32,000 nt of DNA from Vulcanisaeta distributa DSM 14429 (lineage in GTDB: Archaea; Thermoproteota; Thermoprotei; Thermoproteales; Thermocladiaceae), in NCBI RefSeq assembly GCF_000148385.1, contig NC_014537.1:1440001-1472000 (forward strand), written 5' to 3'. Below are positions 18,375 to 32,000 of this stretch, one piece after another. Every line of letters starts with the position of its first letter. Positions within the stretch are counted from its first letter, which is position 1. The position numbers and the translations under genes were made by a program. The notes under the pieces are model-generated. The model was not told the origin of the DNA. It worked only from the letters and a program-made list of their open reading frames with translations, and ran no database searches.

Positions 18375-19205
18375 TTGGTTGATGTTATTACGATAATCGC
18401 GGTGATAGTGAGCGTAGCATCATCAACGGCATCCCTAGCCTACTGGCTCGGCGGGAGGTTCACGGAGATAGAGTCCAGGTTTGGTCATGTTGATTCAAGG
18501 CTTGGTCAAATCGAGGATAGATTTAATAAAATTGAGAATAGATTTGATAAAATCGAGAATAGGATTAATGTAATCGAAGGTAGAATTAATGGAGTTGAGG
18601 AGAGGGTTAATAGAATTGAGGAAAGGATTGGTAAGGTCGAGGAGAGAATTATTAACATTGAGAATAGAATTGAAAAGATCGAGAACGGACTTAGTGGGAT
18701 TGAGGATAGAGTTAGTAAAATTGAGGACAGAATTAATAGAATTGAAGATAGAATTAATAAGATTGAGGATAGGATCAGTAACATTGAGAATAGAATTAGC
18801 GGAGTGGAAAATAGGATTAATAGTCTTGAGATTAGGATTGAAAGACTTGAAAACGCGTTCAAGCAGTTCTCCGAGGTTCTCATAACGGCATTGGAATCCA
18901 AGGGCATATTTACATCGACGGAGGCCCTGACCCTCAGGAGCATGGTGAAGACACTGCTGCCGGTGCCAAGGACTAAGTACTACACGTGGGAGGTCTATGA
19001 GAGGCTCAGGCAGTTGCTTGATAAGGACCCAAATGAATACACTATGGCCGATATTGAGCAATTGAATGATATCGCAGATTTAATAGAGAAGGAGGGCTTT
19101 GAAGCAAATAGGAGGGACCTAATAGAGTACGCCTGGAAACTCAGGTACTACGCAATGGTCGCCAAGGTGGTCTTCGTATACCCAAAGCTAAGACAACAAA
19201 AATAA
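18375..19205 (+). CDS. Membrane-anchored coiled-coil protein: N-terminal TM helix, 19 perfect heptads, and a roughly 110-aa C-terminal helical domain
   Basis: The TM helix is VDVITIIAVIVSVASSTASLAYWLGG. From residue 32 the sequence runs IESRFGH VDSRLGQ IEDRFNK IENRFDK IENRINV ... LENAFKQ without a stutter. Confidence 0.7.
   Translation: MVDVITIIAVIVSVASSTASLAYWLGGRFTEIESRFGHVDSRLGQIEDRFNKIENRFDKIENRINVIEGRINGVEERVNRIEERIGKVEERIINIENRIEKIENGLSGIEDRVSKIEDRINRIEDRINKIEDRISNIENRISGVENRINSLEIRIERLENAFKQFSEVLITALESKGIFTSTEALTLRSMVKTLLPVPRTKYYTWEVYERLRQLLDKDPNEYTMADIEQLNDIADLIEKEGFEANRRDLIEYAWKLRYYAMVAKVVFVYPKLRQQK
18468..18866 (+). repeat. 21-bp-periodic coding tandem repeat (19 units) encoding the IExRIxx heptads
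   Basis: Examples of the repeated units are attgaggatagaattaataga, attgaagatagaattaataag and attgaggataggatcagtaac. The repeat also generates stop-free spurious ORFs in other frames and on the opposite strand. Confidence 0.85.
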
Positions 19206-19416: not shown

Positions 19417-19980
19417 GTGAACACGGAAACCCTCGAGAAGCCATTGCCTAAGCCTTCCATGGAGGATTACGTGAACGCAAGGCTACTAGAAGCTTTAGTC
19501 GAGGCCAGACTTGCCCTCGAGTTCCTTGGTAGGGGTTTGGTTAGGAATGCAGCTGGCAAGGCTTTCCAGTCCTGGAGAGCTTTGCTCGCGGCATTACTGA
19601 GGCTTGAGCTTGATAGGTTAATGCAGGTAGTTAAGACCGATGAGGAGCGTAGGTGGCTAATGGAGAGAGCAATACCCAGAGTCCCAACGAGCAGGATGAT
19701 GGCGTTATCCAAAATGCTCAGTGACATTGGGCATGCCGGGTTATTACCTGACACCGCATTAGCCCTGAGCCTGCACGATTATCAGTATAATGGGCCAGAC
19801 CCCGACATGGCACTGTCGAAGTTTAGGAGTAGGAGTGACGCCGCAGCGGCGGTCCTGGAGCTTATTAGCGAGGTGGTTAGGCGTATTGAGGAGCTGAAGC
19901 CAAGAATCAAGTGGGGTAATGAGCTTGAGGAGGCTCTCAGGGAGCTTAAGGATGAGCTTAACAGGGTAGGGAAATCCTAA
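19417..19980 (+). CDS. PaREP1-family protein (PF05942-like, function unknown)
   Basis: 187 aa, all-helical. The ...LEFLGRGLVRNAAGKAFQSWRALLAAL... block matches my recollection of the PaREP1 signature. GTG start. Confidence 0.65.
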   Translation: MNTETLEKPLPKPSMEDYVNARLLEALVEARLALEFLGRGLVRNAAGKAFQSWRALLAALLRLELDRLMQVVKTDEERRWLMERAIPRVPTSRMMALSKMLSDIGHAGLLPDTALALSLHDYQYNGPDPDMALSKFRSRSDAAAAVLELISEVVRRIEELKPRIKWGNELEEALRELKDELNRVGKS

Positions 19981-20072: not shown

Positions 20073-20180
20073 GAAACACTTGATAAACCACTGCCTAAAC
20101 TGAATGCTAGAGATTGCATGAGCGTCAGCTACTTAAGACCTTAGTCAAGGCTAAATTAGTCCTGGAATCCTCAGTGAGGG
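20073..20180 (+). pseudogene. Decayed 5' fragment of a PaREP1 gene immediately upstream of the ATPase gene
   Basis: gaaacacttgataaaccactgcctaaac...ttagtcaaggctaaattagtcctgg aligns by eye with the intact copy gaaaccctcgagaagccattgcctaagcc...ttagtcgaggccagacttgccctcg at roughly two-thirds identity. It is interrupted by stops. Confidence 0.5.
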
Positions 20181-20199
20181 CTAAGTGCCGTGTTGAGTT

Positions 20200-21252
20200 G
20201 TGATAAGGCTAATAAGGAGGAGGATGGGGGTCTACGTCGTGGGGAGGGTTAGGCTGGGCTTTGCTAATTTAACGATTGAATTCGTGGATAGGGACCTCGC
20301 CCTTAAACTCATTGATGAATGGGCCGAGAAAAGCACCTTCCCAGTCCAAGTCATCTATGGACCAGAGGGTTGTGGTAAGACTGCGTGGCTTCTGCAGTCA
20401 GTGGAGTTGCTTAGGGATTACGGGTTCGAGGTTGTTTATGTGAATCCAATCAATAGGCTTGCCTTTGCTGAGGTAAGCATCAGTAGCCTTAGGGAGGAGT
20501 TCTTCAAGCTGGTTAAGGAGGCTATTGCACAAAGTGCGTTGGCTAGAATCGCATGGATAGCGTACAACGTGGTTTATGACGTAATCAAGGCGACCAGGGG
20601 AAAAATAGCCATCATCGTTGACGACGCATTCCAGGTAATCGGCATCAAGGAGTCCGCATTATACGTGAAGGCACTGCTAAACCTCATTGAGTACCCACCC
20701 GAGCATTATGAGAGGATAGTCACGATAGCAGCAACGAGCGAGGGCGTGTCGAGGAGAGAAATAGGAAGACACACGTGGGCTTGGATAATACCCATGTGGA
20801 ATATGCCGAAGAACGGGTTCAAGCAACTTTATGATCAAATACCGGGCAAGAAGCCGGACCTCGAAGAGGTCTGGCGGTTGACTGGGGGTAATCCGAGGAT
20901 GCTTGAGGAATTGTATAAAGCCAATTGGGATGCTGATAGGGTGATTGGGGAGTTGATTAAGGGTAAGGGCGTTGATGTTTTTGTAAGCTCGCTAAGTGAT
21001 AGTGAGAGGCGCATGTTGGCTAGGGCTGTTGAAGATCCAGACGTGCTATTCACGAGGGAGGGAATACCACTAATGAGCAAATTAATCGAGCTAAACCTGG
21101 TACTCGACATATCGGACAGGAAGCCATACCTATGGATAGACCAACCACCACCTGAGAAAGATGAGGAACTCGGGATTGGCAGGCGCGTCGCGTGGCAATC
21201 ACCACTGCATAGAGAAGCCGTGAGGAGGATGCTTGAAGCGCAATCTCAATAA
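20200..21252 (+). CDS. P-loop NTPase of an uncharacterised archaeal ATPase family (paralog A); likely true start at ATG 20224
   Basis: Walker A is YGPEGCGKTAWLLQ and Walker B-like is IAIIVDDAFQ. The C-terminal domain ends ...WQSPLHREAVRRMLE. About 55% aa identity by eye to the ORF at 30520-31530. Confidence 0.75.
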   Translation: MIRLIRRRMGVYVVGRVRLGFANLTIEFVDRDLALKLIDEWAEKSTFPVQVIYGPEGCGKTAWLLQSVELLRDYGFEVVYVNPINRLAFAEVSISSLREEFFKLVKEAIAQSALARIAWIAYNVVYDVIKATRGKIAIIVDDAFQVIGIKESALYVKALLNLIEYPPEHYERIVTIAATSEGVSRREIGRHTWAWIIPMWNMPKNGFKQLYDQIPGKKPDLEEVWRLTGGNPRMLEELYKANWDADRVIGELIKGKGVDVFVSSLSDSERRMLARAVEDPDVLFTREGIPLMSKLIELNLVLDISDRKPYLWIDQPPPEKDEELGIGRRVAWQSPLHREAVRRMLEAQSQ

Positions 21253-21283
21253 GTGTTTAAGGGAGGGATGCAGTGAATTAGCC

Positions 21284-21525
21284 GTGGATGCGGAGACCCT
21301 TGAGAGACCCCTACCTAAGCCAACCATGGAGAACTACATCATGTGAGGCTCCTGGATCATTGATTGAAGCCAAGCTATCCCTTAAATTCCTCAGCAAGGG
21401 CTTGGTTAGGGATGTCGCGGGTTGATGAGGAGAATTGAGGAACTGAAACCAAGAATCAAGTGGAGTGATGACTTGGAGAGTACGTTAAAGCCTTGAAGGA
21501 GGAGGCAGGTGTTGGTAAAAGTTAA
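21284..21525 (+). pseudogene. PaREP1 pseudogene with an internal deletion of about 0.3 kb plus stops and frameshifts
   Basis: VDAETLERPLPKPTMENYIM* and ...KLSLKFLSKGLVRDVAG match the PaREP1 N-terminus. The sequence then jumps directly to RRIEELKPRIKWSDDLE, which matches the C-terminus VRRIEELKPRIKWGNELE. The promoter-like gtttaagggaggg is retained at 21254-21267. Confidence 0.7.
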
Positions 21526-21554
21526 ACAATTCAATACTGATTTAGGGAGTCGAA

Positions 21555-22625
21555 ATGAGGGTATGCATACTTGAGGAATTCACAAGGCTTGGTGGCGGGC
21601 AGGTATATGCACTGCAGATGGCTAGGGCGTTAACGGAGCTTGGGCACTCCGTGGAGTTCGTGGTCACTGGTGACATCAAGGTTGACCCCAAATACCCAGT
21701 GAGGCACGTGGACGTGGGTTTCAAGGCGTCCTACGACCCAGCCTCACTACTCATTAACTACATAAACCATAGGAGGTTAAGGAGACTGCTGGGTAGGTAT
21801 GTCGATGACTGTGACCTAGTCATAAATAATCACCCAAACTACATACCATACAACAAAGGCCCAATAGTGCTTCACGGGCTCTCCTTCGTGGACTTCATAA
21901 TCGATGAGAATGGGAACATAAGAAACCAACTACTGTTTTGGGTACTCTCGAGGATTTACAGGATGTACGATGGCTCATACATGATCTACAACTCAAGGTA
22001 CACAATGAACCTAGCCAAGAAACTACTGCCAAAAATGGGCATAGAACCAAGGCTCGAGTACGTACTAAGCCCACACTACACAATAAGCACAGACAAGATA
22101 CCGGAGAAGGAGGACTACGTACTAACCCTGGGAAGACTCGAGTGGAGCAAGGGCTACAGGGAACTAATAAAGATAGCACCAAGAATAGGAAAGAGAATAA
22201 TTGTGGCAGGCAGGGCAGACGCGAGGGAATCAAGGGAGGTAATAAGGGCTCTCAGGGGCGTTAAAAACATAGACGTGATGCCGGACATAGACGAAAAGAC
22301 GAAGGAGGAACTATACAAACACGCATCAATATACCTACACCTCAAACCAAACGAGCACTTCGGGATAGCGGTACTAGACGCCATAGCCACGGCAACAATA
22401 CCAATAGTACCAAGGACAGGAGGACCTTGGACAGACATAGTGGAGGAGGGAAAATACGGACTAGGATACACAAACACCGAGGAAATACCACAACTAATAA
22501 ACAAAGCCGAAGAAATCAACAGAGAAAAGATATTCAAAGGCAGGGAAAGGTATAGCCCAGAGAACTTCAGGAGGAAACTCATAAAGGCATTATCAATGGC
22601 AATACACAGTAAAGATGCGGAATGA
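21555..22625 (+). CDS. GT4-family (group 1) glycosyltransferase
   Basis: N-terminal MRVCILEEFTRLGGGQVYALQMARAL, with the C-terminal motif EHFGIAVLDAIATATIPIV. Confidence 0.8.
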   Translation: MRVCILEEFTRLGGGQVYALQMARALTELGHSVEFVVTGDIKVDPKYPVRHVDVGFKASYDPASLLINYINHRRLRRLLGRYVDDCDLVINNHPNYIPYNKGPIVLHGLSFVDFIIDENGNIRNQLLFWVLSRIYRMYDGSYMIYNSRYTMNLAKKLLPKMGIEPRLEYVLSPHYTISTDKIPEKEDYVLTLGRLEWSKGYRELIKIAPRIGKRIIVAGRADARESREVIRALRGVKNIDVMPDIDEKTKEELYKHASIYLHLKPNEHFGIAVLDAIATATIPIVPRTGGPWTDIVEEGKYGLGYTNTEEIPQLINKAEEINREKIFKGRERYSPENFRRKLIKALSMAIHSKDAE

Positions 22626-22692
22626 ATTTAAGAATGGATGCTTGTGAATAATACTTAAATAATGATATTAGTATTGAAAATTACTACGCAAC

Positions 22693-25332
22693 ATGCAGTC
22701 AATCAATAGGCACGTCATTATTAATGAGATTGAAAAAAGGAAAATCATCATTAAATTGTTCTCTTTACCGTTATTAATTCAATTCTACATAGTATTTACA
22801 CTCGGCTACCTAAACATAACGCCACGGCTATATAATTATGAAGTAATACACATATCAGCAATAGCGTTCACGGTCGGGTTCTTTCTGTTCATGACACCAA
22901 CAATAACAAATCAAGTAAGGCAGGCAATAAACGACAAATACTACGCAGCAACACTACTAATATTCCTGGCAATAACCTACGAACTAACCTACCTAGCCAC
23001 AGTACCACCATACTACGGACTAAGCCTAGGGGCAAGCCTGGACACGGCAACTTACTTACAATCCTTCGCTTCATTAACATACTACAGGCAATTCCTGGTA
23101 AGCTTCGTAGGACCATTCTTTAGTGTTCACGCATCACCAATACTACTCCTAATATACCCAATCTACGAGGTATACCCATCAATATTCACATTAATGACAA
23201 TACAAGTCGTAATACTAATGCTACCAATACCACTAATGTATAAACTAGGCATGAAAATACTCAACAACCCAAAGCATGCACTGGCCACAGCACTACTATA
23301 CATACTATACCCATGGATAATAACCGCATACGCACCATTCGAAGTAGTCACGTTGGCAGGGTCATTCATGGCGATGACACTAATAACCATGTACCTAAAT
23401 GACAAAAAGGCTTATTGGGCATCATTAACCCTAGCCATGGCATCGATAGAATACGTACCATTATTCGGCATCGGACTAAGCATATACCAAGCACTATCAA
23501 AGGAACATAGAAAACTAGCCCTACTAACATTCATATACTCGATAGCATGGTTAATAGCTGACTACTACCTGGTAATGTACTTCAGTGGGCGGACACATAA
23601 CATATTCTCAAATCTATACGGAGCAGCCCTAAGCTCACTACTAACAAACATAACAAACAAACTACTAAACCCCAACACCACTAAGGCGCTTACTATAGAT
23701 CCACAAACGCGCACGGTCATGGACACAACCAACGTATTAAACGGCATAATTCAACAAGCCACCTCTCAATACAACATAAAGGTCCAATACGTGATAGAGG
23801 TATTTGGACCCCTGGCATTCATAAACTTCCTCGAACCACAAACAATACTACTAATGCCCTGGCTAGCGGCATTACTAACAAACTTCACACCATACTACAT
23901 ACCAAACGTATACTACACAATCCTCATAAGCGCAGTCGCACTGCCGGCAACAATATGGGCACTAAGGAGGCTAAAGATTGAAACGAGGAAAAGGGCACTA
24001 ACGGCACTACTAATAATAAACACAATAACGGGACTACTCACGGGACCACTAACACCACTCTCCGGGCTATACTACGGAAACACAATACCAAACTGGAACG
24101 CACCAGTGGCCAACCAATACGACTTAGCCATGATACAACTAGCCAATTATATACCATGGAACGCATCAGTGGCCGTACCAGCCACGGCAGTCCCCTGGTA
24201 CTCAATAACAAGGTATGGATGGGGAAACCACGGAGTACCATTCCTCGGACCAAACAGTAATACCCAGTACGTGGTTTATTCACCACTCGTGCCAACGGGA
24301 TACCCATACAACACAGGAGGTAGTGAATATGGCCCATATGCCTTTGATGATGGTGCATGGATACTGAAGGCAAACTACACAGGGCCAATAAAGATAATCA
24401 ACGGGTTCTACTACGAGAACACCTACATAATAAACCCAGTACTGCCAGGTACGTGGCAATACCCAATAGCCCAAATACCACCAACAAACATAACAATACA
24501 AATAACCACAGAAACAAAACCACAACAAGCAATAACACTACTAAACACAACACTACTCAAAACACAACTACAACAACCCCAAGGAATAGCCTGCGGAATA
24601 GGGCCTGGCGAAGTAATCATACCTGGAGGCACTTACATCGCACAACCAGTAACCATAAACGAAACAACAAGAATAAGCTCAATAACGGTATTCACATCAT
24701 ATGAGACCAACCTGGCCACAGCAGAATTAATAATATCAACAACACCAACACCTAACCAAAAAAGCACTATATACACATATACCTTTGGAACGCCATGGTG
24801 GTGCTCACCGCATTCCTGGACAACACCAATAACAGCAAACCCAGACATAACCCTAAAACCAGGAACATACTACATAATACTGACATTCCCAATACAAGGA
24901 CAAACAATATGCGAACAAATACCAAACACACCAAAGGCACTACTCATAAACGCAACAACAGGACAAATAATAAAACAACTACCATGCACCCTAGGAACAA
25001 TAATAACAACAAACCCACGAAGTAGTTTCAAGGTATCATTATCTAATGTAATAATAAATATATTAAGCAATGAAATACAGATAAATGGAAATGAAGAAAT
25101 AATGATAAGTACCGTAGTTAAAAATGTGTCAGGGCTTGTACTAACAATAAACTCACAAAATACACAATCTAATATTCAATTAACTATAAAACTAAAGGTA
25201 ATGACTCAAAACGCATCAGGCCCATTAATACCATGGTACTTAATACCTATCATAGGACTAATACCTGAGTACGTACTTCTTGCTCTAGCAATGTTAATGC
25301 TAGTTCCTAACCTAAGGAATTTAAGGTGGTAA
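22693..25332 (+). CDS. Large polytopic membrane protein: DUF2079-like (GT-C-type) N-terminal domain, a Thr/Asn/Pro/Gln-rich sequon-rich ectodomain, and a C-terminal TM anchor
   Basis: About 12-13 TM helices. The VHASPILLLIYPIYEVYPS...QVVILMLPIPLMY block resembles the DUF2079 core as I recall it. The distal half has at least 11 N-x-S/T sequons. The last roughly 35 aa form a hydrophobic anchor (WYLIPIIGLIPEYVLLALAMLMLV). Confidence 0.55.
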   Translation: MQSINRHVIINEIEKRKIIIKLFSLPLLIQFYIVFTLGYLNITPRLYNYEVIHISAIAFTVGFFLFMTPTITNQVRQAINDKYYAATLLIFLAITYELTYLATVPPYYGLSLGASLDTATYLQSFASLTYYRQFLVSFVGPFFSVHASPILLLIYPIYEVYPSIFTLMTIQVVILMLPIPLMYKLGMKILNNPKHALATALLYILYPWIITAYAPFEVVTLAGSFMAMTLITMYLNDKKAYWASLTLAMASIEYVPLFGIGLSIYQALSKEHRKLALLTFIYSIAWLIADYYLVMYFSGRTHNIFSNLYGAALSSLLTNITNKLLNPNTTKALTIDPQTRTVMDTTNVLNGIIQQATSQYNIKVQYVIEVFGPLAFINFLEPQTILLMPWLAALLTNFTPYYIPNVYYTILISAVALPATIWALRRLKIETRKRALTALLIINTITGLLTGPLTPLSGLYYGNTIPNWNAPVANQYDLAMIQLANYIPWNASVAVPATAVPWYSITRYGWGNHGVPFLGPNSNTQYVVYSPLVPTGYPYNTGGSEYGPYAFDDGAWILKANYTGPIKIINGFYYENTYIINPVLPGTWQYPIAQIPPTNITIQITTETKPQQAITLLNTTLLKTQLQQPQGIACGIGPGEVIIPGGTYIAQPVTINETTRISSITVFTSYETNLATAELIISTTPTPNQKSTIYTYTFGTPWWCSPHSWTTPITANPDITLKPGTYYIILTFPIQGQTICEQIPNTPKALLINATTGQIIKQLPCTLGTIITTNPRSSFKVSLSNVIINILSNEIQINGNEEIMISTVVKNVSGLVLTINSQNTQSNIQLTIKLKVMTQNASGPLIPWYLIPIIGLIPEYVLLALAMLMLVPNLRNLRW

Positions 25333-26105
25333 TTTTTAAATGTTATAAGGCTATACTTGATATTATGGCAAATATTATAATCAATTGCAGAAATAACCCT
25401 GTGGGATTAATTAAGAGAGCATTTATTTTCTTCATTAACGTTAAAGGTATTACATTTTATGACGAACTTCGTCTCTTAATAGCTGTATTAATATTTATAT
25501 ATTATATATTACGTAGGCTATTAAGGTTAGAAAATAAGGTTTATAACCTTTCGTATTACATACCAGGTAAAGATTCAGTATTAATAAGGTACCGTGATGA
25601 AGAATACGATGTGAAATTCATAATTAGACCTCGTAGTGGGGATTTCTACGATATATTAGGAGAACATTATGAATTAAATCATTGGCTAGCCTTAGTACTT
25701 AACACCACTAAACATGCTGTGATTGTTGATGTTGGTGCTTATATAGGTGGTTATACCGTTAGGGCTTGTAAAAAGGCTAAGCGAGTAATTGCCATTGAAC
25801 CCTTAGAAAGCGCCGCAACTCTACTCCGTAAGAACGTAGAACTTAATAATTGTAATAACGTAGTATTAATAAAAAAGGCCGTATGGAAGGAACAAGGCAA
25901 GGTTCCTATGAAAATTGTTGAGTTTAATGAAGAAGAATCAAGGATAGATCATAATGGTAACATAATCATTGAAGCAGATACTCTCGATAATATAATAAAG
26001 GAATTGGGGATTGACCGCATAGACTTTCTAAAAATTGATATTGAGGGTGCCGAGGCAGAGGCAATACATGGAATGAAAGAAACCTTAAAAATACGAATTA
26101 TCTAA
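25326..26105 (+). CDS. FkbM-family SAM methyltransferase, N-terminal 259 aa, interrupted at an A5 run; likely true start at the internal Met MANIIINC
   Basis: VIVDVGAYIGGYTV (SAM motif) and IDFLKIDIEGAEAEAI are FkbM/Methyltransf_21 hallmarks. The ORF ends prematurely at the TAA at 26103-26105. Confidence 0.7.
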   Translation: MVIFKCYKAILDIMANIIINCRNNPVGLIKRAFIFFINVKGITFYDELRLLIAVLIFIYYILRRLLRLENKVYNLSYYIPGKDSVLIRYRDEEYDVKFIIRPRSGDFYDILGEHYELNHWLALVLNTTKHAVIVDVGAYIGGYTVRACKKAKRVIAIEPLESAATLLRKNVELNNCNNVVLIKKAVWKEQGKVPMKIVEFNEEESRIDHNGNIIIEADTLDNIIKELGIDRIDFLKIDIEGAEAEAIHGMKETLKIRII

Positions 26106-26248
26106 TGATAGAGCTAAGACCTAGCACATTATGGTTAATTAATGAGTTAAATAAGTTAGGGTTTAAGGTATTAGATTGTGTAAATTATGGCAACTTTATT
26201 AACGTGTTTCTACACAATGAGGGTAAACTAAATAGTACACACTTATAA
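26105..26248 (+). CDS. 46-aa continuation of the FkbM methyltransferase in the -1 frame (MIELRPSTLWLINELNKLGFKVLDCVNYGNFINVFLHNEGKLNSTHL)
   Basis: This is my own translation; the ORF is below the ORF-track size cutoff. The sequence looks like the usual FkbM C-terminal strand-helix-strand. Its ATG overlaps the upstream TAA (taATG). Confidence 0.55.
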   Translation: MIELRPSTLWLINELNKLGFKVLDCVNYGNFINVFLHNEGKLNSTHL

Positions 26249-26278
26249 ACTTAATATAATCTTAGTATTAGTAAGCCC

Positions 26279-27265
26279 ATGCCATCCTACGGATTACTAA
26301 TATTTAATAGGAATGAAGTAGTTGGTACGCTTCGCCTCATTAAGTTACTTAATAATACCGTAGATGAAATCGTGATTATAGACTCATCTGACCCACCCAA
26401 GTATAGGGAGCTCATGGATCGATTAATGAAGTATGGCTCAAAGATAATAGTATTCAAGACTATACCATTAGGACATGTAGAGCCGCTTAGAATGTATGGA
26501 TTAAGTAAAATAAGTACTGACTACGTGTTACTTCTCGATACTGATGAAATACCTAATGATAAGCTTATCATTAATTTAAGGCGATATAATGAATATGATG
26601 GGTATATAATTAATAGATACGAGGTTGCTCTTAGAACTATTAGTGAGCAAGTACGGTTATTTAAACGAAATAAAGTACTATTTAGAGGCATAATTCACGA
26701 AAATCCAGAAATACTAGGTAGCAAGGCCAAGCTTTCTAACGGTGAGTATATAATCCATTTAGCTGGTAAACTTAATGCATCAGCATCTAATTATAGCAAG
26801 TACATTATAATAGAGTTATTTTCAAGATATCCTTACTTACTTAATAATCTATTAATTAATAGATTTAAAAGGAAAACCTATTATAAAAGTACGACAATCG
26901 TTCATGTACTTAATGCTATTTTAATATTAATTTACTTTAAAGCCATGAGTTTATTAAAGCCAGGAGATGCCGAGATGTGGTTTTCTTATTTTATGGATTT
27001 ACTTAAAATATTCATAAATATCCCCAGTAAATATAGAAAAATCTTGATGAATATTTCTCAGGAAATATACGAAAATAATGGCATCATTAATTATCTATGT
27101 TTAAACAACCCAAACATCGTTGAATCATTGACTGGAACATATACATGGGATATACCTGGGCATAAAGTCTTTCAGTACCTCATACTCTATAGGTATAAGT
27201 ATAAAAAGTGCGCACAGGATTTTAATGATGTCCTTAATGCCTTTCACCTAAAACCTCATAAATAA
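26279..27265 (+). CDS. GT2-family glycosyltransferase with an uncharacterised C-terminal half
   Basis: LLIFNRNE...EIVIIDSSDP and the DxD-type LLLDTDEIP. Confidence 0.7.
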   Translation: MPSYGLLIFNRNEVVGTLRLIKLLNNTVDEIVIIDSSDPPKYRELMDRLMKYGSKIIVFKTIPLGHVEPLRMYGLSKISTDYVLLLDTDEIPNDKLIINLRRYNEYDGYIINRYEVALRTISEQVRLFKRNKVLFRGIIHENPEILGSKAKLSNGEYIIHLAGKLNASASNYSKYIIIELFSRYPYLLNNLLINRFKRKTYYKSTTIVHVLNAILILIYFKAMSLLKPGDAEMWFSYFMDLLKIFINIPSKYRKILMNISQEIYENNGIINYLCLNNPNIVESLTGTYTWDIPGHKVFQYLILYRYKYKKCAQDFNDVLNAFHLKPHK

Positions 27266-28514
27266 AATCCAGGGTTTCCTGAGCAACCTTCTCCCACGAA
27301 TCATGCTCCTTCAAGAACCTTCTCGTTCTCTCATCCTCATGTTCCTTAACATACTCATCAATACTCATGTTAATTATTCTTTTCGTTTCATGAGCTAAAC
27401 TACTTATATCGTACTCACGAACCATGTGTACAGGCTTTAATCCACCATACACGAGCCTTATTGCCGGTATATCATAAGCAACGGCAGACGTACCTAACGC
27501 GATCGTCTCAAGAATAACTAATGGAAACGAATCGACGTGGGAAGGATATATTAAAGCCTTTGCGCGTGCTACATAATCGTACAATTCATTAATGGGTCTA
27601 TAACCCATGTACTTCAAGTTATTAGGTAAATTACGTAAAAATCTATCCCTTATTCTATTAGATATCGGGCCAAAGACTAGAATATTAATATCATGCAAAT
27701 ACTTAGCCACCTTTATTATGTCCCATGCACCCTTAGCAGGGGTTAATCTCCCAAAGAAAACGGCGTAATCCCTCTTATCATAGATGTTACGGTATCTATA
27801 GATTAAGTCCTTATCGAAGGCATTGCCGTAACGATAAATTCTTAACTTAACTCCATACTTATTCGATAATTTTTCAATATTCGAATAGTAAATAGGTACT
27901 TGCGAAACAGATGCTATGCCACGAAGCATGCCGCCCTTCATAGCCATACTGTAAATGGCTTTAGTAAGTCTATGTTCTAAAAATACGTATGAATCCTCAA
28001 GCAACCCATAAATACCATCAACATGCCTATACCCTCTTCCAAACCATTTAAAGGTCCTAAAGGGTTCATTTTGAAGAACCTTTATTATCGGGACATTTAA
28101 CTTCTTAGCAAGGTATAAGGCATATACAAGTGAGATACCACTTTCATGAACATCTAATATTACATCAAACTTAATGTTATTATGCATTAAATCATTAGTT
28201 AACTCATTGATTATAAATTTACAGTAAACTTCATTATTAATTAAAAATTTATATAATGCCATGAGCATCTTTGATATATTATTACTATAATTAAGGCATA
28301 GCTCTTGAAAACGATAATTAATGTCATGAACCATTAATCCATATTTTCTAATTTCATCCAATGAATTAGACGTAAAATGAAATGGTTCTTCAAATACTAA
28401 AATATCATGTCCATAAATGTTTGTTAATATTTTTAATACCTCAACAGCATGCCTATGTGAACCACCAGGTAAGCCATCAATTATTGCAAGTATTTTCATA
28501 ACCGTTATCTTCAA
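27234..28514 (-). CDS. GT4-family (group 1) glycosyltransferase; likely true start at ATG 28499 (MKILAII)
   Basis: FFGRLTPAKGAWDIIKVAK...PSHVDSFPLVILETIALGTSAVAYDIPA. Confidence 0.8.
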   Translation of the reverse strand: MKITVMKILAIIDGLPGGSHRHAVEVLKILTNIYGHDILVFEEPFHFTSNSLDEIRKYGLMVHDINYRFQELCLNYSNNISKMLMALYKFLINNEVYCKFIINELTNDLMHNNIKFDVILDVHESGISLVYALYLAKKLNVPIIKVLQNEPFRTFKWFGRGYRHVDGIYGLLEDSYVFLEHRLTKAIYSMAMKGGMLRGIASVSQVPIYYSNIEKLSNKYGVKLRIYRYGNAFDKDLIYRYRNIYDKRDYAVFFGRLTPAKGAWDIIKVAKYLHDINILVFGPISNRIRDRFLRNLPNNLKYMGYRPINELYDYVARAKALIYPSHVDSFPLVILETIALGTSAVAYDIPAIRLVYGGLKPVHMVREYDISSLAHETKRIINMSIDEYVKEHEDERTRRFLKEHDSWEKVAQETLDFIYEVLGERH

Positions 28515-28708
28515 ACTATTTCATATTCATATGGGTATTTAATTCTTTCGTATTGTTTATGCAGTGTTATAATTTTTAATTTATATTTTTGTTGGTATTA
28601 TGTCTAGTTTCTGGCTATTTCACAGATCATATTTATGACTTTCTTTGAAGCATTCATTAGTTTATATTTTCACTTTAGGTAATTCTTTTAAGTTATGCTT
28701 TTTGGTCA

Positions 28709-30517
28709 TTGGTAATGATTGTTGTTGGTTTTAATTGGCCTGTGGAGCATGATCATTCTGTTGCGGTTATTGTTGATGGTGAGCTTGTCTTTGCCAGTGA
28801 GGAGGAGAGGTGGACAAGGCATAAGCACTCACCCGGAGAGCCACCAATAAACGCATTGAAGCAAGCCTTCAAATACCTAGAGAATAAATACGGAATCAAG
28901 CCAAAGGATGTTGATGCATACGCAGTGAACTTTGACCCCAAATTAATGCCACATAAATTAGGCTGGTTCCTTAATGATACTCTGGATTTGCTTGGTATTA
29001 GGAGGTTTAGGGCTTATTGGTATGAGGGTAAGTCTATTATTAGTTCTGGTCTTGAATTACTTAGTTACATTATTCGTGGTGATTATTTGTCGTTTGTTGA
29101 GCATATGATTAGGTTTGTTGTTCATGATCTTGGTGAGGAGGTTCTGGGTGAGGTTAGGGTTGTTCCTGTTCCTCATCATCTTGCCCATGCTGCCTCTGCC
29201 TACTACTTCAGTGGTTTCACTAATGCCACTGTATTGACTGTTGATGGTTATGGCGAATATGAGTCTACGGTTGTTTGGAGGGTGAAGAACGGTGAGTTTG
29301 AGAAGGTGACGTCATTACCAACTTATTATGGTTCTATTGGACTTCTCTATGAGGAGGTTTCCTGGACTATTGGTTATGATCATCTTGAGGGCCCTGGTAA
29401 GGTCATGGGGTTGGCGCCCTACGGTCAGAGGTCGAAGTATTACGAGAAGTTGAGGTCTTACTTTAGGTTTGATGATGGTGATTACCCGTACTACATAACT
29501 GTTGATGGTTCTAGGCCTAGGGTTGTTAAGGGTGGTGATGCTGTTTATAGGAGGCCTTACCGCCTTATTGCTGATTCCCTCTTTCCTGGTCGTGTTCCCT
29601 GGGATCCCCGTGGTGATCTTAATCGTGATGCTGTTGACTTGGCTTGGGCTGTTCAGGCAATTACCGAGGAGGCCATGCTTAGGCTTGCTGAGTGGGCTAG
29701 GGGGCACACTAATGAGCAGAATCTTGCCCTCGCCGGTGGTGTGGCTCTTAATGCCAAGGCTAACATGGTTATTCACTACTCCAAATTATTCAGTGACATG
29801 TTCATATTCCCAGCAGCCAATGATGCTGGGACAACGGTTGGCGCCGCTGCCTATGTTTACGAGCATGTCCTTGGTGGTAGGATGAGGAGGGGGAGGCTTA
29901 GGACTGTTTATTTGGGTCCGGAGTATGGTGATGATGAGGTTAGGAAGGTCGTTGAGCGTAGCCGATTCAATGCAGAATACATTGGTGATGATGTTAATGA
30001 GGTTGCCGACTTAGTCGCCAAGGGCTATGTGGTTGCTTGGTACCAGGGTAGGGCTGAGCTTGGGCCAAGGGCACTCGGCAATAGATCCATTGTGGCTGAC
30101 CCTAGGAGAGCCGACATGTGGAGGGTGGTAAATAACATTAAGGGCCGTGAGTGGTGGAGACCACTCGCCCCATCACTACTCGTTGAAGATGCCAGTAAGT
30201 ACTTCATTGATCCGGTGCCGCATCAATTCATGATACTGATGTTCAGGTTTAGGGAGGGAATGAAGGAAGTCGTGCCAGCCGTATACCACGTTGATGGGAC
30301 TGCAAGGCCGCAGACGGTTGCCAAGGACGAGAACCCAACTTGGTACGAACTCATAAAGGCGTTTAAGGACATAACAGGCGAGGGAATAATACTGAACACA
30401 AGCTTCAACCTAGCAGGAGAACCACTGGTGGAGACCCCACAGGACGCCTTGAAATCCTTCGCCCTCGGAGGACTAGACGCAATATACATACAGGGCTGGC
30501 TAATAAGGAAGAGGTGA
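28709..30517 (+). CDS. NodU/CmcH-family carbamoyltransferase; likely true start at ATG 28715
   Basis: HDHSVAVIVDGELVFASEEERWTRHKH, PHHLAHAASAYYFSGF, and GRAELGPRALGNRSIVADP...NTSFNLAGEPLV are hallmark blocks of the Carbam_trans_N and Carbam_trans_C domains. Confidence 0.9.
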   Translation: MVMIVVGFNWPVEHDHSVAVIVDGELVFASEEERWTRHKHSPGEPPINALKQAFKYLENKYGIKPKDVDAYAVNFDPKLMPHKLGWFLNDTLDLLGIRRFRAYWYEGKSIISSGLELLSYIIRGDYLSFVEHMIRFVVHDLGEEVLGEVRVVPVPHHLAHAASAYYFSGFTNATVLTVDGYGEYESTVVWRVKNGEFEKVTSLPTYYGSIGLLYEEVSWTIGYDHLEGPGKVMGLAPYGQRSKYYEKLRSYFRFDDGDYPYYITVDGSRPRVVKGGDAVYRRPYRLIADSLFPGRVPWDPRGDLNRDAVDLAWAVQAITEEAMLRLAEWARGHTNEQNLALAGGVALNAKANMVIHYSKLFSDMFIFPAANDAGTTVGAAAYVYEHVLGGRMRRGRLRTVYLGPEYGDDEVRKVVERSRFNAEYIGDDVNEVADLVAKGYVVAWYQGRAELGPRALGNRSIVADPRRADMWRVVNNIKGREWWRPLAPSLLVEDASKYFIDPVPHQFMILMFRFREGMKEVVPAVYHVDGTARPQTVAKDENPTWYELIKAFKDITGEGIILNTSFNLAGEPLVETPQDALKSFALGGLDAIYIQGWLIRKR

Positions 30518-30519
30518 GG

Positions 30520-31530
30520 TTAATCCCCTTCTTTTAGCGTTCTTCTCACGGCTTCTCTGTGTAGTGGTGTTTGCCAGGCTAGGTCTTTTCCTATCCCTAG
30601 TTCTGGGTCTTTTTGTGGTGGCGGTTCCCCTGTCCAGTACCATGGGTCTCTCCACTCCGGTATTTCCATGATTAGGTTTTGCTCGATTAGTTTATTCATG
30701 AGTGGTATGCCGTCCCTGGTCATGAGTGTGTCTGGGTCTTCAATTGCCTTAATTAGTAATTGCCTCTCTCCATTGCTTAGTGATGCTGTGAATGTCTTGA
30801 GGTTTTTGCTCATTATTAGGTCGCTGATTACCTTCTCGGTATCCCAACCAGCCCTGTATAGTTCCACCAGCATCTTTGGGTTTCCACCTGTGATTCTCCA
30901 AATAACGTCGAAGTTAGGCTTATCGCCGGGTAATTGATTGTATAACTGCTTGAATCCCTCCCTCGGCATGTTCCACATGGGCCTCATGTCTGCCCATCTG
31001 TGGCGCTCAATCTCGCGTCTCGAAACTCCCTCACTCGTGGCTACCACCGCAATGACTATGTCGTATGTCCTTGGCGGGTATTCAATCAAACCCAGCAGGC
31101 CCTTCACGTAAATCGCCGCCTTGTCTAGACCTATTGCCTGGAACACGTCGTCGGCCAGTACCGCCACCTTCTTTGCGCCTGCCTTCATGATTTCCTTAGC
31201 AATGTCCACCACGGCCCATGCAACCCTCACCCAGGTATCGGCCGTGGCTTCCCTGAGTATTTCCATTAGCCTTGCCTTGACATCTGTTATTCCGGTTTCC
31301 GCCATTACCTCCTTCTCGACTGGATTTACATAAACCACATCGAAGCTCAACTCCTTAAGTAACTCAACGGATTGTTTTAGCCATGTCGTTTTCCCACAAC
31401 CCTCAGGTCCATAAACTACCTGAACCGGGTATGTACCCTTATCGGCCTATTCCTTAACACGTCTCATTATTAGGTCTCTGTCCACTAACTCGACCGCTAG
31501 ATTTGCGAAGTTTAGCTTGATCCTTCTCAC
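30520..31530 (-). pseudogene. P-loop ATPase paralog B, disrupted by an in-frame TAG at 31447-31449
   Basis: The ORF track gives only 30520-31350 (TTG-initiated, no P-loop). My translation further upstream in the same frame gives VRRIKLNFANLAVELVDRDLIMRRVKE*ADKGTYPVQVVYGPEGCGKTTWLKQSVELLKEL. This is collinear with paralog A (VGRVRLGFANLTIEFVDRDLALKLIDEWAEKSTFPVQVIYGPEGCGKTAWLLQ). The stop sits where paralog A has Trp. Confidence 0.8.
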
Positions 31531-32000
31531 TGTGTTTGATAGGTTGTTCTTTGTTTATTTTTCTTTCCTGTCTTAGGTTTTGGTGTCGTCATGTTCCTTA
31601 GTGTAGTTATTGATGCGTGGTTTCATGTATTTGCCATTCTATTACCGCTCCGTATATTGTGCATGTGTTCAGTTCTTGGCTCTCCTGTGTCTCCTTGTCC
31701 GTGTTCACGTCAACGGCCAGGCTTCTCAGTCGTTCATTAAGCACCATCTATAGTCACAAACTCACATAAACCTCAAATATAGAATATTATTTTAAAATGG
31801 ATTTCGTTTGGTTCATGTCCATGATTTTTCGTTATGTGGTACGTGCTGTGTCTGAAGCAGATGGTAGGTATGGTTAAATCCTTAATAGGTGTCAGATTAC
31901 TGGGTTCGATGATGACAAAGCTTTATTGGTATTTAATAACTTGGTGAATGGGATCAGTGGTATAGTGGAGCTTTATCATCCTGTTGCGCCCTGATACTTA

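What the first reader, a model, noticed from the sequence alone, without database searches (positions are those of the whole stretch)
20200..31530. Accessory glycan-assembly island bracketed by inverted, diverged copies of one P-loop ATPase gene
Seven glycan genes occupy 21555-30517: a GT4, a DUF2079-like membrane protein, a split FkbM methyltransferase, a GT2, a second GT4, and a carbamoyltransferase. Directly on either side are two paralogs of the same uncharacterised ATPase, 20200-21252 (+) and 30520-31530 (-). They face inward as a roughly 1-kb inverted pair, and each has PaREP1-derived debris on its outer or inner flank. The enclosed DNA has a very different composition from 1-21 kb. This resembles a composite or cassette structure. 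However, synonymous sites in the two ATPase copies are heavily diverged: compare gcaacgagcgagggcgtgtcgagg with gccacgagtgagggagtttcgaga, both encoding TSEGVSRR. Any recombination between them is therefore ancient, or the copies arrived independently.
Basis: partly seen in the sequence, partly recalled or inferred. Interest (0 to 1): 0.7.

Follow-up and report, generated by a model that had tools for sequence, protein, structure and literature searches.

The report
Strain-variable glycan island with ATPase borders
This is the strain-variable core of a surface-sugar biosynthesis locus in the hot-spring archaeon Vulcanisaeta distributa; its two edges carry fast-recombining members of a large ATPase gene family rather than a matched pair of repeats, and the same layout recurs in another archaeal genus.

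Summary
The window is Vulcanisaeta distributa DSM 14429. All gene calls hold. Two inward-facing PF01637 ATPase paralogs flank seven glycan genes. Copy 2 carries an in-frame TAG, so it is a pseudogene. Low GC is confined to about 22.7-28.5 kb. PaREP1 debris flanks copy 1 only.

The two copies are not a repeat pair:
- 53% amino-acid and 66-69% nucleotide identity, with no exact match longer than 11 nt.
- Synonymous sites are saturated.
- They fall in different deep clades.

Four other Vulcanisaeta genomes keep the same chromosomal site. ATPase/PaREP1 genes sit at every border that was recovered, and both borders were seen only in the closest relative. The interior differs in every genome. That relative, 93% identical, lacks 5.2 kb: FkbM, GT2, GT4b and most of the carbamoyltransferase.

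I read this as a replacement-type glycan island with old ATPase/PaREP1 borders, not a composite cassette.

The border genes themselves recombine:
- The first ~130 codons of copy 1 are 93-98% identical to a third paralog in the same genome.
- The right border holds from one to at least eight ATPase copies.

PaREP1 (a HEPN protein) and this ATPase are linked in both directions. Pyrobaculum oguniense has the same bracket around glycan genes that overlap a published strain-specific region. Moderately interesting.

The parts
14618..16087 (-). Wzx-like polysaccharide flippase. Part of the conserved left portion of the glycan locus.
   Evidence: PF01943 at 29.9 bits against a cut-off of 28.2. Orthologues are 74-90% identical in L044, L078 and L164.
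16181..17248 (+). Glucose-1-phosphate thymidylyltransferase (RmlA, long form)
   Evidence: TIGR01208 at 354 bits against a cut-off of 320. PF00483.
17245..18258 (-). NAD-dependent sugar epimerase/dehydratase
   Evidence: PF01370 E=2e-39. 98% aa identity in L164 and about 90% in L078. JCM 16159 has a 26%-identical gene in its place.
18375..19205 (+). Membrane-anchored coiled-coil protein built from 21-nt (heptad) tandem repeats. It keeps its position but varies in sequence between strains.
   Evidence: 14 copies of a 21-nt period. Only coiled-coil Pfam hits. 58-78% aa identity in relatives.
19417..19980 (+). Intact PaREP1 gene (HEPN-T clade), left border module
   Evidence: PF05942 E=1e-26. His120 is invariant across the 21 PaREP1 sequences aligned. 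The HEPN assignment is from PMC3710099.
20060..20170 (+). Degraded N-terminal remnant of a second PaREP1 gene, frameshifted
   Evidence: Translations show SETLDKPLPK and LLKTLVKAKLVLE. 84% nt identity over 51 nt to the start of the second PaREP1 of JCM 11216 (L078 9045-9095). tblastn gave only E=0.11, so this is a weak call.
20200..21252 (+). ATPase copy 1 (PF01637; AAA+/Orc1-like with a C-terminal winged helix). Intact. The database start is probably 20239. The gene is a chimera.
   Evidence: Pfam 236 bits. Identical to P0001, V. distributa. AF2 pLDDT 89, with Foldseek hits to Orc1/Cdc6, DnaA, Avs3 and Apaf-1. Residues 1-130 are 93-98% identical to paralog P0003 of the same genome. Residues 131-337 are 96-99% identical to the positional orthologue in GCA_001316145.
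21273..21490 (+). Internally deleted PaREP1 remnant: residues 1-47 joined to residues 153-175
   Evidence: tblastn E=1e-5 and 1e-4. HMM E=8e-4. A 62-nt direct repeat, 79% identical to 19868-19929. The gene is intact at this position in L044 and L078.
21555..22625 (+). GT4 glycosyltransferase (GT4a), normal GC
   Evidence: PF00534 and PF13439. 81% aa in JCM 16159, 94-95% in L164, about 79% (fragmented) in JCM 14467.
22693..25332 (+). DUF2079 membrane protein with a long Thr/Asn/Pro-rich C-terminal domain. Candidate membrane glycosyltransferase or polymerase.
   Evidence: PF09852 E=1.9e-21. GC3 0.38. Homology with L164 ends at 25112.
25326..26248 (+). FkbM-family methyltransferase, frameshifted (259-aa plus 47-aa ORFs), low GC
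   Evidence: PF05050 covers profile positions 1-138 of 173. The C-terminus continues in another frame after an A5 run. GC3 0.27. The read assembly that spans it (L001) is 100% identical.
26279..27265 (+). GT2 glycosyltransferase, low GC
   Evidence: PF00535. GC3 0.30. Absent from L164.
27234..28514 (-). GT4 glycosyltransferase (GT4b), low GC
   Evidence: PF00534. GC3 0.32. After three unnamed hits at 70-73%, the next homologues are unnamed sequences and Sulfolobales proteins at 40-45%.
28709..30517 (+). NodU/CmcH-type carbamoyltransferase, normal GC
   Evidence: PF02543 and PF16861. On the opposite strand relative to the left flank in JCM 11216 (L078 13876-12000, 79% nt). Only the last 77 codons survive in L164.
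30520..31530 (-). ATPase copy 2, a pseudogene. In-frame TAG at 31449-31447 upstream of Walker A, and a 5' end of different origin.
   Evidence: Translation. The residual 276-aa ORF scores PF01637 E=1.3e-44. The orthologue in L164 is 95% identical and has TGG at that codon. Homology with L164 collapses upstream of about 31425-31455. The closest relatives are members of the 8-copy right-border array of JCM 14467, at 74%.

Best explanation
The 21.5-30.5 kb block is the exchangeable core of a Wzx-type surface-glycan biosynthesis locus.

Position. The locus occupies one fixed chromosomal site in Vulcanisaeta. On the left are thyX, then Wzx, RmlA and the epimerase; what lies upstream of thyX varies between strains. 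On the right are a HEPN/MNT pair, a proteasome subunit and thiI.

Division of labour. The conserved left part supplies the flippase and an activated sugar. The variable part supplies glycosyltransferases and modifying enzymes (methyl, carbamoyl). It is partly low in GC, and one gene in it has its closest named homologues in Sulfolobales. Between strains it is remodelled by deletion, replacement and at least one orientation change. It therefore behaves like the 'replacement flexible genomic islands' that encode exposed glycans in bacteria.

Borders. Both edges of the variable part are occupied by a large, fast-turning-over family of AAA+/Orc1-like ATPases (PF01637). These usually sit next to PaREP1 (HEPN-clade) genes. 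The two ATPase genes in this window are independent paralogs. Each is inherited at its own border. They are not the arms of a mobile or invertible cassette.

Turnover of the border genes.
- At the left border a different paralog occupies the same slot in other strains.
- The first ~130 codons of copy 1 nearly match (93-98% aa) a third paralog of the same genome, which I read as recent gene conversion.
- The right border holds from one (here, inactivated) to at least eight copies.

Shown versus inferred. Shown: gene identities, synteny, interior variability, paralog relationships, the chimeric structure and the PaREP1-ATPase linkage. Inferred: that the product is a surface glycan, that variation is selected by viruses, that exchange occurs by homologous recombination in or next to the border modules, and that PaREP1 plus ATPase act as a selfish or defence-type pair.
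For: Organism and family:
- Copy 1 is 100% identical to a V. distributa protein from a 2,374,137-bp record. GT4b is named to strain DSM 14429.

Same site, different interior:
- JCM 16159 (L044) keeps the left flank, PaREP1, an ATPase, PaREP1, GT4a, DUF2079, a 43%-identical FkbM, GT2 and GT4b. Other GT genes follow where this strain has the carbamoyltransferase.
- JCM 11216 (L078) keeps the left flank, PaREP1 x2, an ATPase and PaREP1. Next comes the carbamoyltransferase on the opposite strand and an unrelated FkbM.
- JCM 14467 (L011, L027) keeps the right flank, followed by 8 tandem ATPases. A separate contig carries a different GT set ending in GT4a and PaREP1.
- GCA_001316145 (L164) is 93-97% identical in nucleotides and has both ATPases in the same inverted layout. 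It lacks window 25113-30283.

The two copies are not a pair:
- 66-69% nucleotide identity, longest exact match 11 nt. pS=0.75. Different deep clades.
- Each has its own orthologue in L164: 87.6% aa for copy 1 and 95% for copy 2.

Border turnover:
- The left-border ATPases of L044 and L078 are 93% identical to each other but 54% to copy 1.
- Copy 1 is chimeric.
- Copy 2 has a nonsense codon and a foreign 5' end.
- dN/dS is about 0.2 for both copies, so the pseudogenisation is recent.

Composition: GC3 is 0.27-0.38 for four interior genes only. The interiors of L044 and L027 are also low in GC. GT4b's closest named homologues are Sulfolobales proteins.

PaREP1-ATPase linkage:
- 29 of 150 ORFs flanking ATPase arrays are PaREP1. 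PaREP1 did not reach the listed families (at most one member) among 136 ORFs lying 5 kb or more away.
- In reverse, 26 of 49 PaREP1 genes in PaREP1-anchored metagenome contigs have this ATPase within 600 bp.

Recurrence:
- P. oguniense has inward-facing ATPases at 1.7765 Mb (+) and 1.8034 Mb (-). They enclose DUF1616, an epimerase, GT2, two GT4, UDP-GlcNAc 2-epimerase and PaREP1. The interval overlaps the 1,780-1,795 kb region published as absent from P. arsenaticum (PMC3558965).
- A second Vulcanisaeta locus reads ATPase x6, PaREP1, glycan cluster.

No mobility signatures: no tRNA, no Rfam match, and no ATPase relatives in viral contigs.
Against: - No glycan product or phenotype is known; function rests on Pfam and NCBIfam matches.
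- The Wzx call is only just above its cut-off.
- No oligosaccharyltransferase or Wzy was found in the window.
- Four of the five comparison genomes are error-prone drafts with frameshifts and contig breaks inside ATPase arrays. The joins L011+L027 and L006+L012 are therefore inferred.
- The JCM 11216 contig ends 1.1 kb after the carbamoyltransferase, so I cannot tell whether a whole-block inversion or a different assembly of genes explains its orientation.
- GT genes are as common 5-10 kb from these ATPases (7 of 136) as right next to them (11 of 150). I could not measure a genome-wide background. The ATPase-glycan association is thus shown by examples, not by a statistic.
- The paralog P0003 is known only as a protein. 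The direction and exact tract of the presumed gene conversion were not seen at DNA level.
- All three read-assembly contigs retrieved with GT4a start at 21180, inside copy 1, and this is unexplained.
Confidence: 0.7

Rival explanations
1. Composite or invertible cassette. The two inward-facing ATPase genes act as inverted-repeat arms, and recombination between them inverts or mobilises the enclosed glycan genes.
For: The orientation is inverted. The conserved 3' ends form a 106-nt imperfect inverted repeat (72%). The carbamoyltransferase lies in the opposite orientation next to the left-border module in JCM 11216. Inversions between inverted duplications, one involving a paREP-associated gene, are documented in P. 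oguniense (PMC3558965). The P. oguniense bracketing pair is closer, at 74% nt with a 47-nt exact match. Copy 1 has nearly the same first 130 residues as another paralog, which suggests recent exchange.
Against: 66-69% nt identity with no exact match longer than 11 nt, and saturated synonymous sites. The copies lie in different clades, and each has its own orthologue in the sister strain. No recombinase or transposase turned up among the proteins scanned. The locus is at the same chromosomal site in five genomes. One read contig runs unbroken from 21180 across copy 2. The JCM 11216 arrangement also differs in gene content, so it is not a simple inversion.
Confidence: 0.05
2. The ATPases (with PaREP1) are functional parts of glycan production, for example regulators or assembly factors of the neighbouring cluster. 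That would explain why they sit beside it.
For: Glycan clusters adjoin ATPase/PaREP1 modules at three separate loci in two genera. Glycosyltransferases are the second most frequent neighbours, at 11 of 150. The fold includes an Orc1-like winged helix, which is compatible with DNA binding.
Against: Copy 2 is a pseudogene. Copy number runs from 1 to at least 8. A non-orthologous paralog fills the same slot in other strains. GT frequency is the same 5-10 kb away. Most family members have non-glycan neighbours. The specific partner is PaREP1, a HEPN-clade protein typical of conflict systems.
Confidence: 0.1
3. Coincidence. A multi-copy family simply has two members about 9 kb apart, with no relation to the glycan genes or to variability.
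For: At least 10-12 copies per genome in the JCM drafts. Copies tend to cluster. Random placement of 12 copies in 2.4 Mb already gives about 0.5 expected pairs within 10 kb. In P. oguniense 3 of 5 recovered copies lie within 10 kb of a published variable-region boundary, but the chance probability of that is about 0.1.
Against: ATPases occupy the same border positions wherever a border was recovered across the five Vulcanisaeta genomes, while the interior changes. The bracket recurs around glycan genes overlapping a published strain-specific region in P. oguniense.
Confidence: 0.1

Closest known systems
Replacement flexible genomic islands (glycan or 'glycotype' islands; O-antigen and capsule loci) - Lopez-Perez et al. 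2014, PMC4033161
   Same: Fixed chromosomal position. Encodes synthesis of an exposed glycan (flippase, NDP-sugar enzymes, GTs, modifying enzymes). Gene content differs between even close strains. The core is low in GC. Divergence peaks next to the exchanged segment: 24.7% in 20223-20622 against 2-7% nearby.
   Different: This is a crenarchaeon. The borders are not housekeeping genes but arrays of PaREP1/ATPase paralogs that are themselves exchanged. The divergence peak in copy 1 is explained by conversion from a paralog in the same genome, not obviously by import from another strain. The glycan and its role as a virus receptor are untested.
paREP-associated strain-specific regions and inversions in Pyrobaculum (Bernick et al. 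2012, PMC3558965)
   Same: PaREP1 genes mark regions that are present in one strain and absent in a close relative. My data place PF01637 ATPases on both sides of their 1,780-1,795 kb region and glycan genes in the bracketed interval around it.
   Different: That paper does not mention the ATPase family or the glycan content. Its documented inversions end in near-identical duplications, which the two copies here are not.
Composite transposons and invertible segments bounded by inverted repeats
   Same: Two homologous genes in inverted orientation bracket a block of accessory genes.
   Different: The arms are 66-69% identical. There is no transposase or recombinase, no target duplication, and no change of location between genomes. 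One arm is a pseudogene.
HEPN-based conflict modules (HEPN-MNT toxin-antitoxin pairs; ATPase-regulated HEPN nucleases such as PrrC/RloC - the latter comparison is from my own knowledge)
   Same: PaREP1 is a HEPN-T clade protein (PMC3710099). It is tightly and reciprocally linked to an NTPase. Both families are lineage-expanded and fast-evolving, and they sit among TA and defence-like genes (HEPN/MNT; AriA/GajA-like ATPase).
   Different: No MNT partner. PaREP1 lacks the canonical Arg of the Rx4-6H motif (PMC3710099). There are no PADLOC or PHROG matches. The linkage is frequent (about half of cases) but not obligate. Neither toxicity nor defence has been tested.

Membership tests
PF01637 'ATPase domain predominantly from Archaea' (AAA+) | Pfam model score above the gathering cut-off | tested here: met
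   Copy 1: 236.3 bits. Copy 2 residual ORF: 153.1 bits. Cut-off 33.2.
PF01637 'ATPase domain predominantly from Archaea' (AAA+) | Walker A (GxxxxGKT) and Walker B (hhhhDD) motifs in an intact reading frame | tested here: inconclusive
   Both copies encode GPEGCGKT, plus IIVDDAF or VLADDVF. Copy 1 is intact. In copy 2 a TAG at 31449-31447 separates the start from Walker A, and no in-frame start codon follows before the motif.
PF01637 'ATPase domain predominantly from Archaea' (AAA+) | AAA+/Orc1-Cdc6-like fold: P-loop domain, helical lid and C-terminal winged helix | tested here: met
   AF2 model with pLDDT 89.3 and pTM 0.87. Best PDB matches are Orc1/Cdc6, DnaA, Avs3 and Apaf-1, probability 1.0. 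TM-scores are only 0.35-0.46, which suggests different domain orientations.
Composite transposon / repeat-bounded mobile cassette | Near-identical terminal repeat copies | tested here: not met
   66-69% nt identity, longest exact match 11 nt, pS 0.75.
Composite transposon / repeat-bounded mobile cassette | Transposase or integrase, and a target-site duplication or att site | tested here: not met
   No such Pfam domain in any gene scanned between 6.7 and 31.5 kb or in the 10-kb right flank. No tRNA. No flanking direct repeats beyond short chance matches.
Composite transposon / repeat-bounded mobile cassette | Found at different genomic locations in different genomes | tested here: not met
   Same flanks in five Vulcanisaeta genomes. 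No relatives of the ATPase in 2.9 million viral contigs.
Invertible DNA segment | Both orientations coexist in one population | not testable with these tools
One read-assembly contig is continuous from 21180 across copy 2 into the right flank. Between strains, only the carbamoyltransferase of JCM 11216 is reversed.
Replacement flexible genomic island (glycan island) | Same chromosomal position in all strains, with conserved flanks | tested here: met
   Left flank conserved from thyX inward in L044, L078 and L164 (acs adjoins thyX only in L044 and L078). Right flank conserved in L011 and L164.
Replacement flexible genomic island (glycan island) | Different gene content with a similar function between strains | tested here: met
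   Interiors of L044, L078, L027 and L164 all differ, and all are made of GT, methyltransferase or carbamoyltransferase genes.
Replacement flexible genomic island (glycan island) | Encodes an exposed cell-surface structure | not testable with these tools
   Inferred from Wzx, RmlA, GT4, GT2 and DUF2079. No biochemical data.
Replacement flexible genomic island (glycan island) | Peaks of mainly synonymous divergence at the island borders (recombination scars) | tested here: inconclusive
   dS is 0.33 in copy 1 against 0.03-0.23 in neighbouring genes, with dN/dS 0.20. The peak is confined to 20223-20622. That tract matches a paralog of the same genome, so the cause is intragenomic conversion rather than demonstrated import.
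Classical integrative genomic island | tRNA target, integrase and flanking direct repeats | tested here: not met
PaREP1/8 (HEPN-T clade) | Pfam PF05942 match and the conserved histidine | tested here: met
   E=1e-26. H120 is invariant across the 21 aligned sequences. The clade assignment is from PMC3710099.
Two-gene toxin-antitoxin or defence module (PaREP1 + ATPase) | Conserved adjacency, tested from both partners | tested here: met
   29 of 150 flanking ORFs are PaREP1, against at most 1 of 136 distal ORFs. 26 of 49 PaREP1 genes have the ATPase within 600 bp, and 30 of 37 adjacent pairs are on the same strand.
Two-gene toxin-antitoxin or defence module (PaREP1 + ATPase) | Match to a known defence-system model, or demonstrated toxicity or immunity | tested here: not met
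   No PADLOC, NCBIfam or PHROG hit for either protein. Toxicity is not testable here.
Wzx/Wzy-type glycan assembly pathway | Flippase, NDP-sugar synthesis and glycosyltransferases | tested here: met
   PF01943 (weak, 29.9 vs 28.2), TIGR01208 (354 vs 320), PF01370, PF00534 x2 and PF00535.
Wzx/Wzy-type glycan assembly pathway | Polymerase, ligase or oligosaccharyltransferase | tested here: inconclusive
   None recognised in the window. The DUF2079 membrane protein is a candidate only.

The most novel reading that the evidence does not exclude
PaREP1 (HEPN) and PF01637 ATPase modules may form a dedicated, recombining border system for surface-glycan diversity loci in Thermoproteales.
- Arrays of diverged paralogs would mark both ends of glycan islands. 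This is seen at two Vulcanisaeta loci and one Pyrobaculum locus.
- They exchange segments with one another by gene conversion. They could thereby supply portable homology that drives cassette replacement, deletion and inversion of the enclosed genes.
- The pair may also act as the long-sought functional partnership for the 'orphan' paREP1 HEPN proteins.
Probability: 0.15. Interest if true: 0.75.

Novelty: new variant of a known kind. Interest (0 to 1): 0.5.

Why it matters
- Surface glycans are the likely first contact for archaeal viruses. How hyperthermophilic Crenarchaeota diversify them is hardly documented. This locus gives a concrete case across five genomes, with an indel resolved at 93% identity.
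- It ties the enigmatic paREP repeats of Thermoproteales to a specific partner gene, the PF01637 ATPase. Earlier comparative work left open what PaREP1 HEPN proteins pair with (PMC3632139).
- It places both gene families at the edges of strain-specific glycan gene blocks in two genera.
- If the border modules do promote exchange, they would be a new kind of recombination scaffold. If they do not, the result is still a clean archaeal example of a replacement-type glycan island, and it shows that an apparent 'inverted repeat pair' can be two unrelated paralogs.

Tried and rejected
- Exact-protein look-ups for P0001, P0002, P0003 and my first ATPase ORF call found nothing on record. I therefore could not read the DSM 14429 or V. 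souniana genomes beyond the read-assembly contigs. The context of paralog P0003 remains unknown.
- The single genome scan did not return DSM 14429, V. souniana, V. moutnovskia or Caldivirga maquilingensis.
- PADLOC, NCBIfam and PHROGs gave nothing for the ATPase or PaREP1.
- Rfam, tRNA and terminator scans gave nothing. The sigma-70 promoter scan does not apply to archaea.
- There are no ATPase relatives in viral contigs.
- Sensitive HMM searches found no PaREP1 remnant beside copy 2 and no ATPase remnant between PaREP1 and the carbamoyltransferase in JCM 11216.
- phmmer with the window's GTs was too insensitive to label GT neighbours, so I used Pfam instead.
- GT genes specifically adjacent to the ATPases: 11 of 150 adjacent against 7 of 136 distal. 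This is not different, so I dropped specific adjacency.
- P. oguniense ATPase positions against the 16 published variable regions: 3 of 5 lie within 10 kb of a boundary, chance probability about 0.1. Inconclusive.
- I considered relaxed selection as the cause of copy 1's fast divergence. I rejected it because dN/dS is 0.20 and the divergence is confined to one 400-bp tract.

Full report
**Identity and observation.**
The window comes from Vulcanisaeta distributa DSM 14429. ATPase copy 1 is 100% identical to a V. distributa protein from a 2,374,137-bp record. GT4b is named to that strain. Three independent read assemblies are 100% identical to 21180-32000.

- epimerase 17245-18258
- PaREP1 19417-19980
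- PF01637 ATPase 20200-21252
- GT4, DUF2079, FkbM, GT2, GT4 and carbamoyltransferase across 21555-30517
- a second PF01637 gene at 30520-31530 on the other strand

The two ATPases are 53% identical (E=7e-114). The quoted codon strings are real, and synonymous sites are saturated (pS 0.75). FkbM is frameshifted at an A5 run.

Five points needed correction:
1. Copy 2 carries an in-frame TAG at 31449-31447, upstream of its Walker A motif.
2. Low GC is confined to DUF2079, FkbM, GT2 and GT4b (GC3 0.27-0.38). GT4a and the carbamoyltransferase are ordinary.
3. PaREP1 remnants lie on both sides of copy 1, at about 20060-20170 and 21273-21490. None lies beside copy 2.
4. The glycan locus begins left of copy 1, with a Wzx-like flippase, RmlA (TIGR01208, above cut-off) and the epimerase.
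5. The ATPase belongs to a very large family (1519 hits at E<=1e-10) with several paralogs in this genome.

**The two copies are not a repeat pair.**
At DNA level they are 66-69% identical, with no exact match longer than 11 nt. In a tree of Vulcanisaeta family members they fall in different deep clades. Copy 1 groups with a paralog elsewhere in the same genome (P0003, 82%) and with a V. souniana protein. Copy 2 groups with members of an eight-copy array in strain JCM 14467.

The window has no tRNA, and no transposase or integrase turned up among the proteins scanned. There is no Rfam match, and the repeat scan found no flanking direct repeats of note. No relatives of the ATPase occur in viral contigs.

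**Synteny.**
A scan of species-representative genomes with an ATPase alignment returned 77 loci. tblastn and blastn with the window's genes identified the orthologous site in four other Vulcanisaeta genomes.

- *Left flank.* In JCM 16159 and JCM 11216 the left flank runs acs, thyX, Wzx, RmlA, (epimerase), coiled-coil gene, at 80-97% aa identity. It is followed by PaREP1, an ATPase and PaREP1.
- *Left-border ATPases.* Those two ATPases are 93% identical to each other but only 54% to copy 1.
- *JCM 16159.* After the border come GT4a, DUF2079, a 43%-identical FkbM, GT2 and GT4b. Other GT genes follow in place of the carbamoyltransferase.
- *JCM 11216.* After the border comes the carbamoyltransferase on the opposite strand and an unrelated FkbM. 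The contig then ends.
- *JCM 14467.* The right flank (thiI, proteasome, three unknown genes, MNT, HEPN) is conserved. Eight tandem ATPase genes follow it directly. A second contig begins with an ATPase and carries a different GT set, ending in GT4a and PaREP1.
- *GCA_001316145.* This is the closest relative, 93-97% identical in nucleotides. It has both ATPases in the same inverted layout. Window 25113-30283 is missing (the end of DUF2079, FkbM, GT2, GT4b and carbamoyltransferase codons 1-525). In its place is 0.7 kb of 30%-GC DNA holding an inverted FkbM fragment. It also lacks a 3.8-kb block of six small ORFs that lies just right of copy 2 in DSM 14429.

So the site is fixed, the interior is fluid, and ATPase/PaREP1 genes sit at every junction that was recovered.

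**The border genes are recombination-active.**
Between the window and GCA_001316145, divergence is 2-7% along most of the 12-kb collinear stretch. It jumps to 24.7% in 20223-20622, the 5' third of copy 1, and returns to 3-5% in the rest of the gene.

Segment identities explain the jump:
- Residues 1-130 of copy 1 are 93-98% identical to P0003, a paralog elsewhere in the same genome.
- Residues 131-337 are 96-99% identical to the positional orthologue.

Copy 1 is thus a recent chimera. I read this as gene conversion between dispersed paralogs.

Copy 2 likewise loses homology to its 95%-identical orthologue upstream of about 31425-31455. That orthologue has TGG where DSM 14429 has TAG. dN/dS is about 0.2 for both genes, so both were under purifying selection until recently.

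Arrays of 3-8 tandem copies occur in several genomes. One array in JCM 16161 has an inserted defence-type ABC ATPase resembling AriA, PD-T4-4 and GajA.

**What the ATPase and PaREP1 are.**
An AlphaFold model of copy 1 (pLDDT 89) matches Orc1/Cdc6, DnaA and STAND NTPases such as Avs3 and Apaf-1. It is an AAA+-type NTPase with a helical lid and a C-terminal winged helix.

PaREP1 is classed as a HEPN-T clade protein that keeps the catalytic His but not the Arg (PMC3710099). Makarova et al. noted that it lacks the usual MNT partner and that its partner was unknown (PMC3632139).

- In my sample, 29 of 150 ORFs flanking ATPase arrays are PaREP1. PaREP1 did not reach the listed families (at most one member) among 136 ORFs lying 5 kb or more away.
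- In the reverse test, 26 of 49 PaREP1 genes in PaREP1-anchored metagenome contigs have this ATPase within 600 bp, mostly on the same strand.

I found no paper in the searchable library that describes this pairing. I cannot exclude that it is recorded elsewhere.

**Recurrence with glycan genes.**
- A second Vulcanisaeta locus (JCM 16161, orthologous in JCM 11216) reads ATPase x6, PaREP1, then methyltransferase, GT2, GT4, epimerase and further GTs.
- In Pyrobaculum oguniense TE7, two ATPases that are 77% identical face inward at 1,776.5 kb (+) and 1,803.4 kb (-). They enclose DUF1616, an epimerase, GT2, two GT4, UDP-GlcNAc 2-epimerase and PaREP1.
- Bernick et al. list 1,780-1,795 kb (paREP1) among the largest regions present in P. 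oguniense and absent from P. arsenaticum. The recovered glycan genes lie partly inside that region and partly just beyond its right edge.

However, GT genes are no more frequent immediately beside ATPases (11 of 150) than 5-10 kb away (7 of 136). I had no genome-wide background. The association therefore rests on repeated examples, not on a statistic.

**Interpretation.**
The best fit is a replacement-type flexible genomic island for an exposed glycan, as described for aquatic bacteria and one archaeon (PMC4033161). It has a fixed position, a similar function, different genes, a low-GC core and divergence scars at the edge.

The low-GC genes may come from Sulfolobales-like donors. After three close unnamed hits, GT4b's next homologues are unnamed sequences and Sulfolobales proteins at 40-45%.

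The distinctive feature is the borders. They are made of PaREP1/ATPase modules that are old residents of both edges and that turn over by paralog replacement, array expansion, decay and gene conversion.

The fallback that the copies arrived independently is supported. The broader suggestion that this family marks variable-region boundaries is supported by example.

**Caveats.**
- Four comparison genomes are frameshift-rich drafts whose contigs break in ATPase arrays.
- The organism name of GCA_001316145 was not given by the tools.
- The glycan product, any virus link and any activity of PaREP1 or the ATPase are inferred.
- The break of three read assemblies at 21180 is unexplained.

Noticed in passing
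window 19417-21490; loci L004-L163: PaREP1 (a HEPN-T protein whose partner was reported as unknown) is reciprocally linked to this PF01637 ATPase clade. 29 of 150 ORFs flanking ATPase arrays are PaREP1, against at most 1 of 136 distal ORFs. 26 of 49 PaREP1 genes in metagenome contigs have the ATPase within 600 bp. A repeated ATPase-PaREP1 unit of about 1.6 kb is visible in P. oguniense (L033 7111-8678 vs L042 10006-11572).
   Followed up: yes
L033 and L042 (Pyrobaculum oguniense TE7, CP003316.1, 1,776-1,804 kb): Two inward-facing ATPase paralogs (77% aa, longest exact match 47 nt) enclose glycan genes. The interval overlaps a region published as absent from P. arsenaticum. This is the same layout as the finding, in another genus.
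   Followed up: partly
L166 (Vulcanisaeta sp. JCM 16161, 1,963,605-1,984,624) and L012 (JCM 11216): A second, non-orthologous locus: six tandem ATPases, then PaREP1, then a glycan cluster. The array is interrupted by a defence-type ABC ATPase (AriA/PD-T4-4/GajA-like) plus a 128-aa ORF. The genes nearest PaREP1 differ between the two strains.
   Followed up: partly
window 12387-13741: A YaaH/SatP-type acetate channel gene and an N-terminally truncated peptide-ABC ATPase fragment sit between acs and thyX. In JCM 16159 and JCM 11216, acs abuts thyX directly. In GCA_001316145 a full peptide ABC operon abuts thyX. This is a second rearrangement point, left of the glycan locus.
   Followed up: partly
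window 18375-19205: A coiled-coil protein encoded by at least 14 tandem 21-nt (heptad) repeats, with an N-terminal hydrophobic segment. It keeps its position next to PaREP1 but is only 58-78% identical between strains. The antisense ORFs listed there are repeat artefacts.
   Followed up: no
L081 6053-9860 (= just right of the window, about 31491-35298 in window numbering): Six small ORFs (71-162 aa) lie between the HEPN/MNT pair and copy 2. They are absent from GCA_001316145 and JCM 14467. One (91 aa) matches a phage/archaeal-virus family of unknown function (phrog_26591, E=5e-15). This may be a remnant of an integrated element abutting the broken 5' end of copy 2.
   Followed up: partly
window 21180, 28707-28712 and 31774: Independent read assemblies break at the same positions. 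All three contigs retrieved with GT4a start at 21180, inside the 3' part of copy 1. This may reflect k-mers shared with other ATPase paralogs, but it is unexplained.
   Followed up: no
window 17245-18258 vs L044 7377-8087: The epimerase is 98% and about 90% conserved in two strains. In JCM 16159 an only 26%-identical epimerase-like gene sits at the same position. Even the 'conserved' left part of the locus has been partly replaced.
   Followed up: no
window 15858-16257: A second sharp divergence peak against the 93%-identical strain: 16.8% here against 1-7% nearby. It lies over the Wzx 5' end and the Wzx-RmlA intergenic region, and may be another recombination scar.
   Followed up: no
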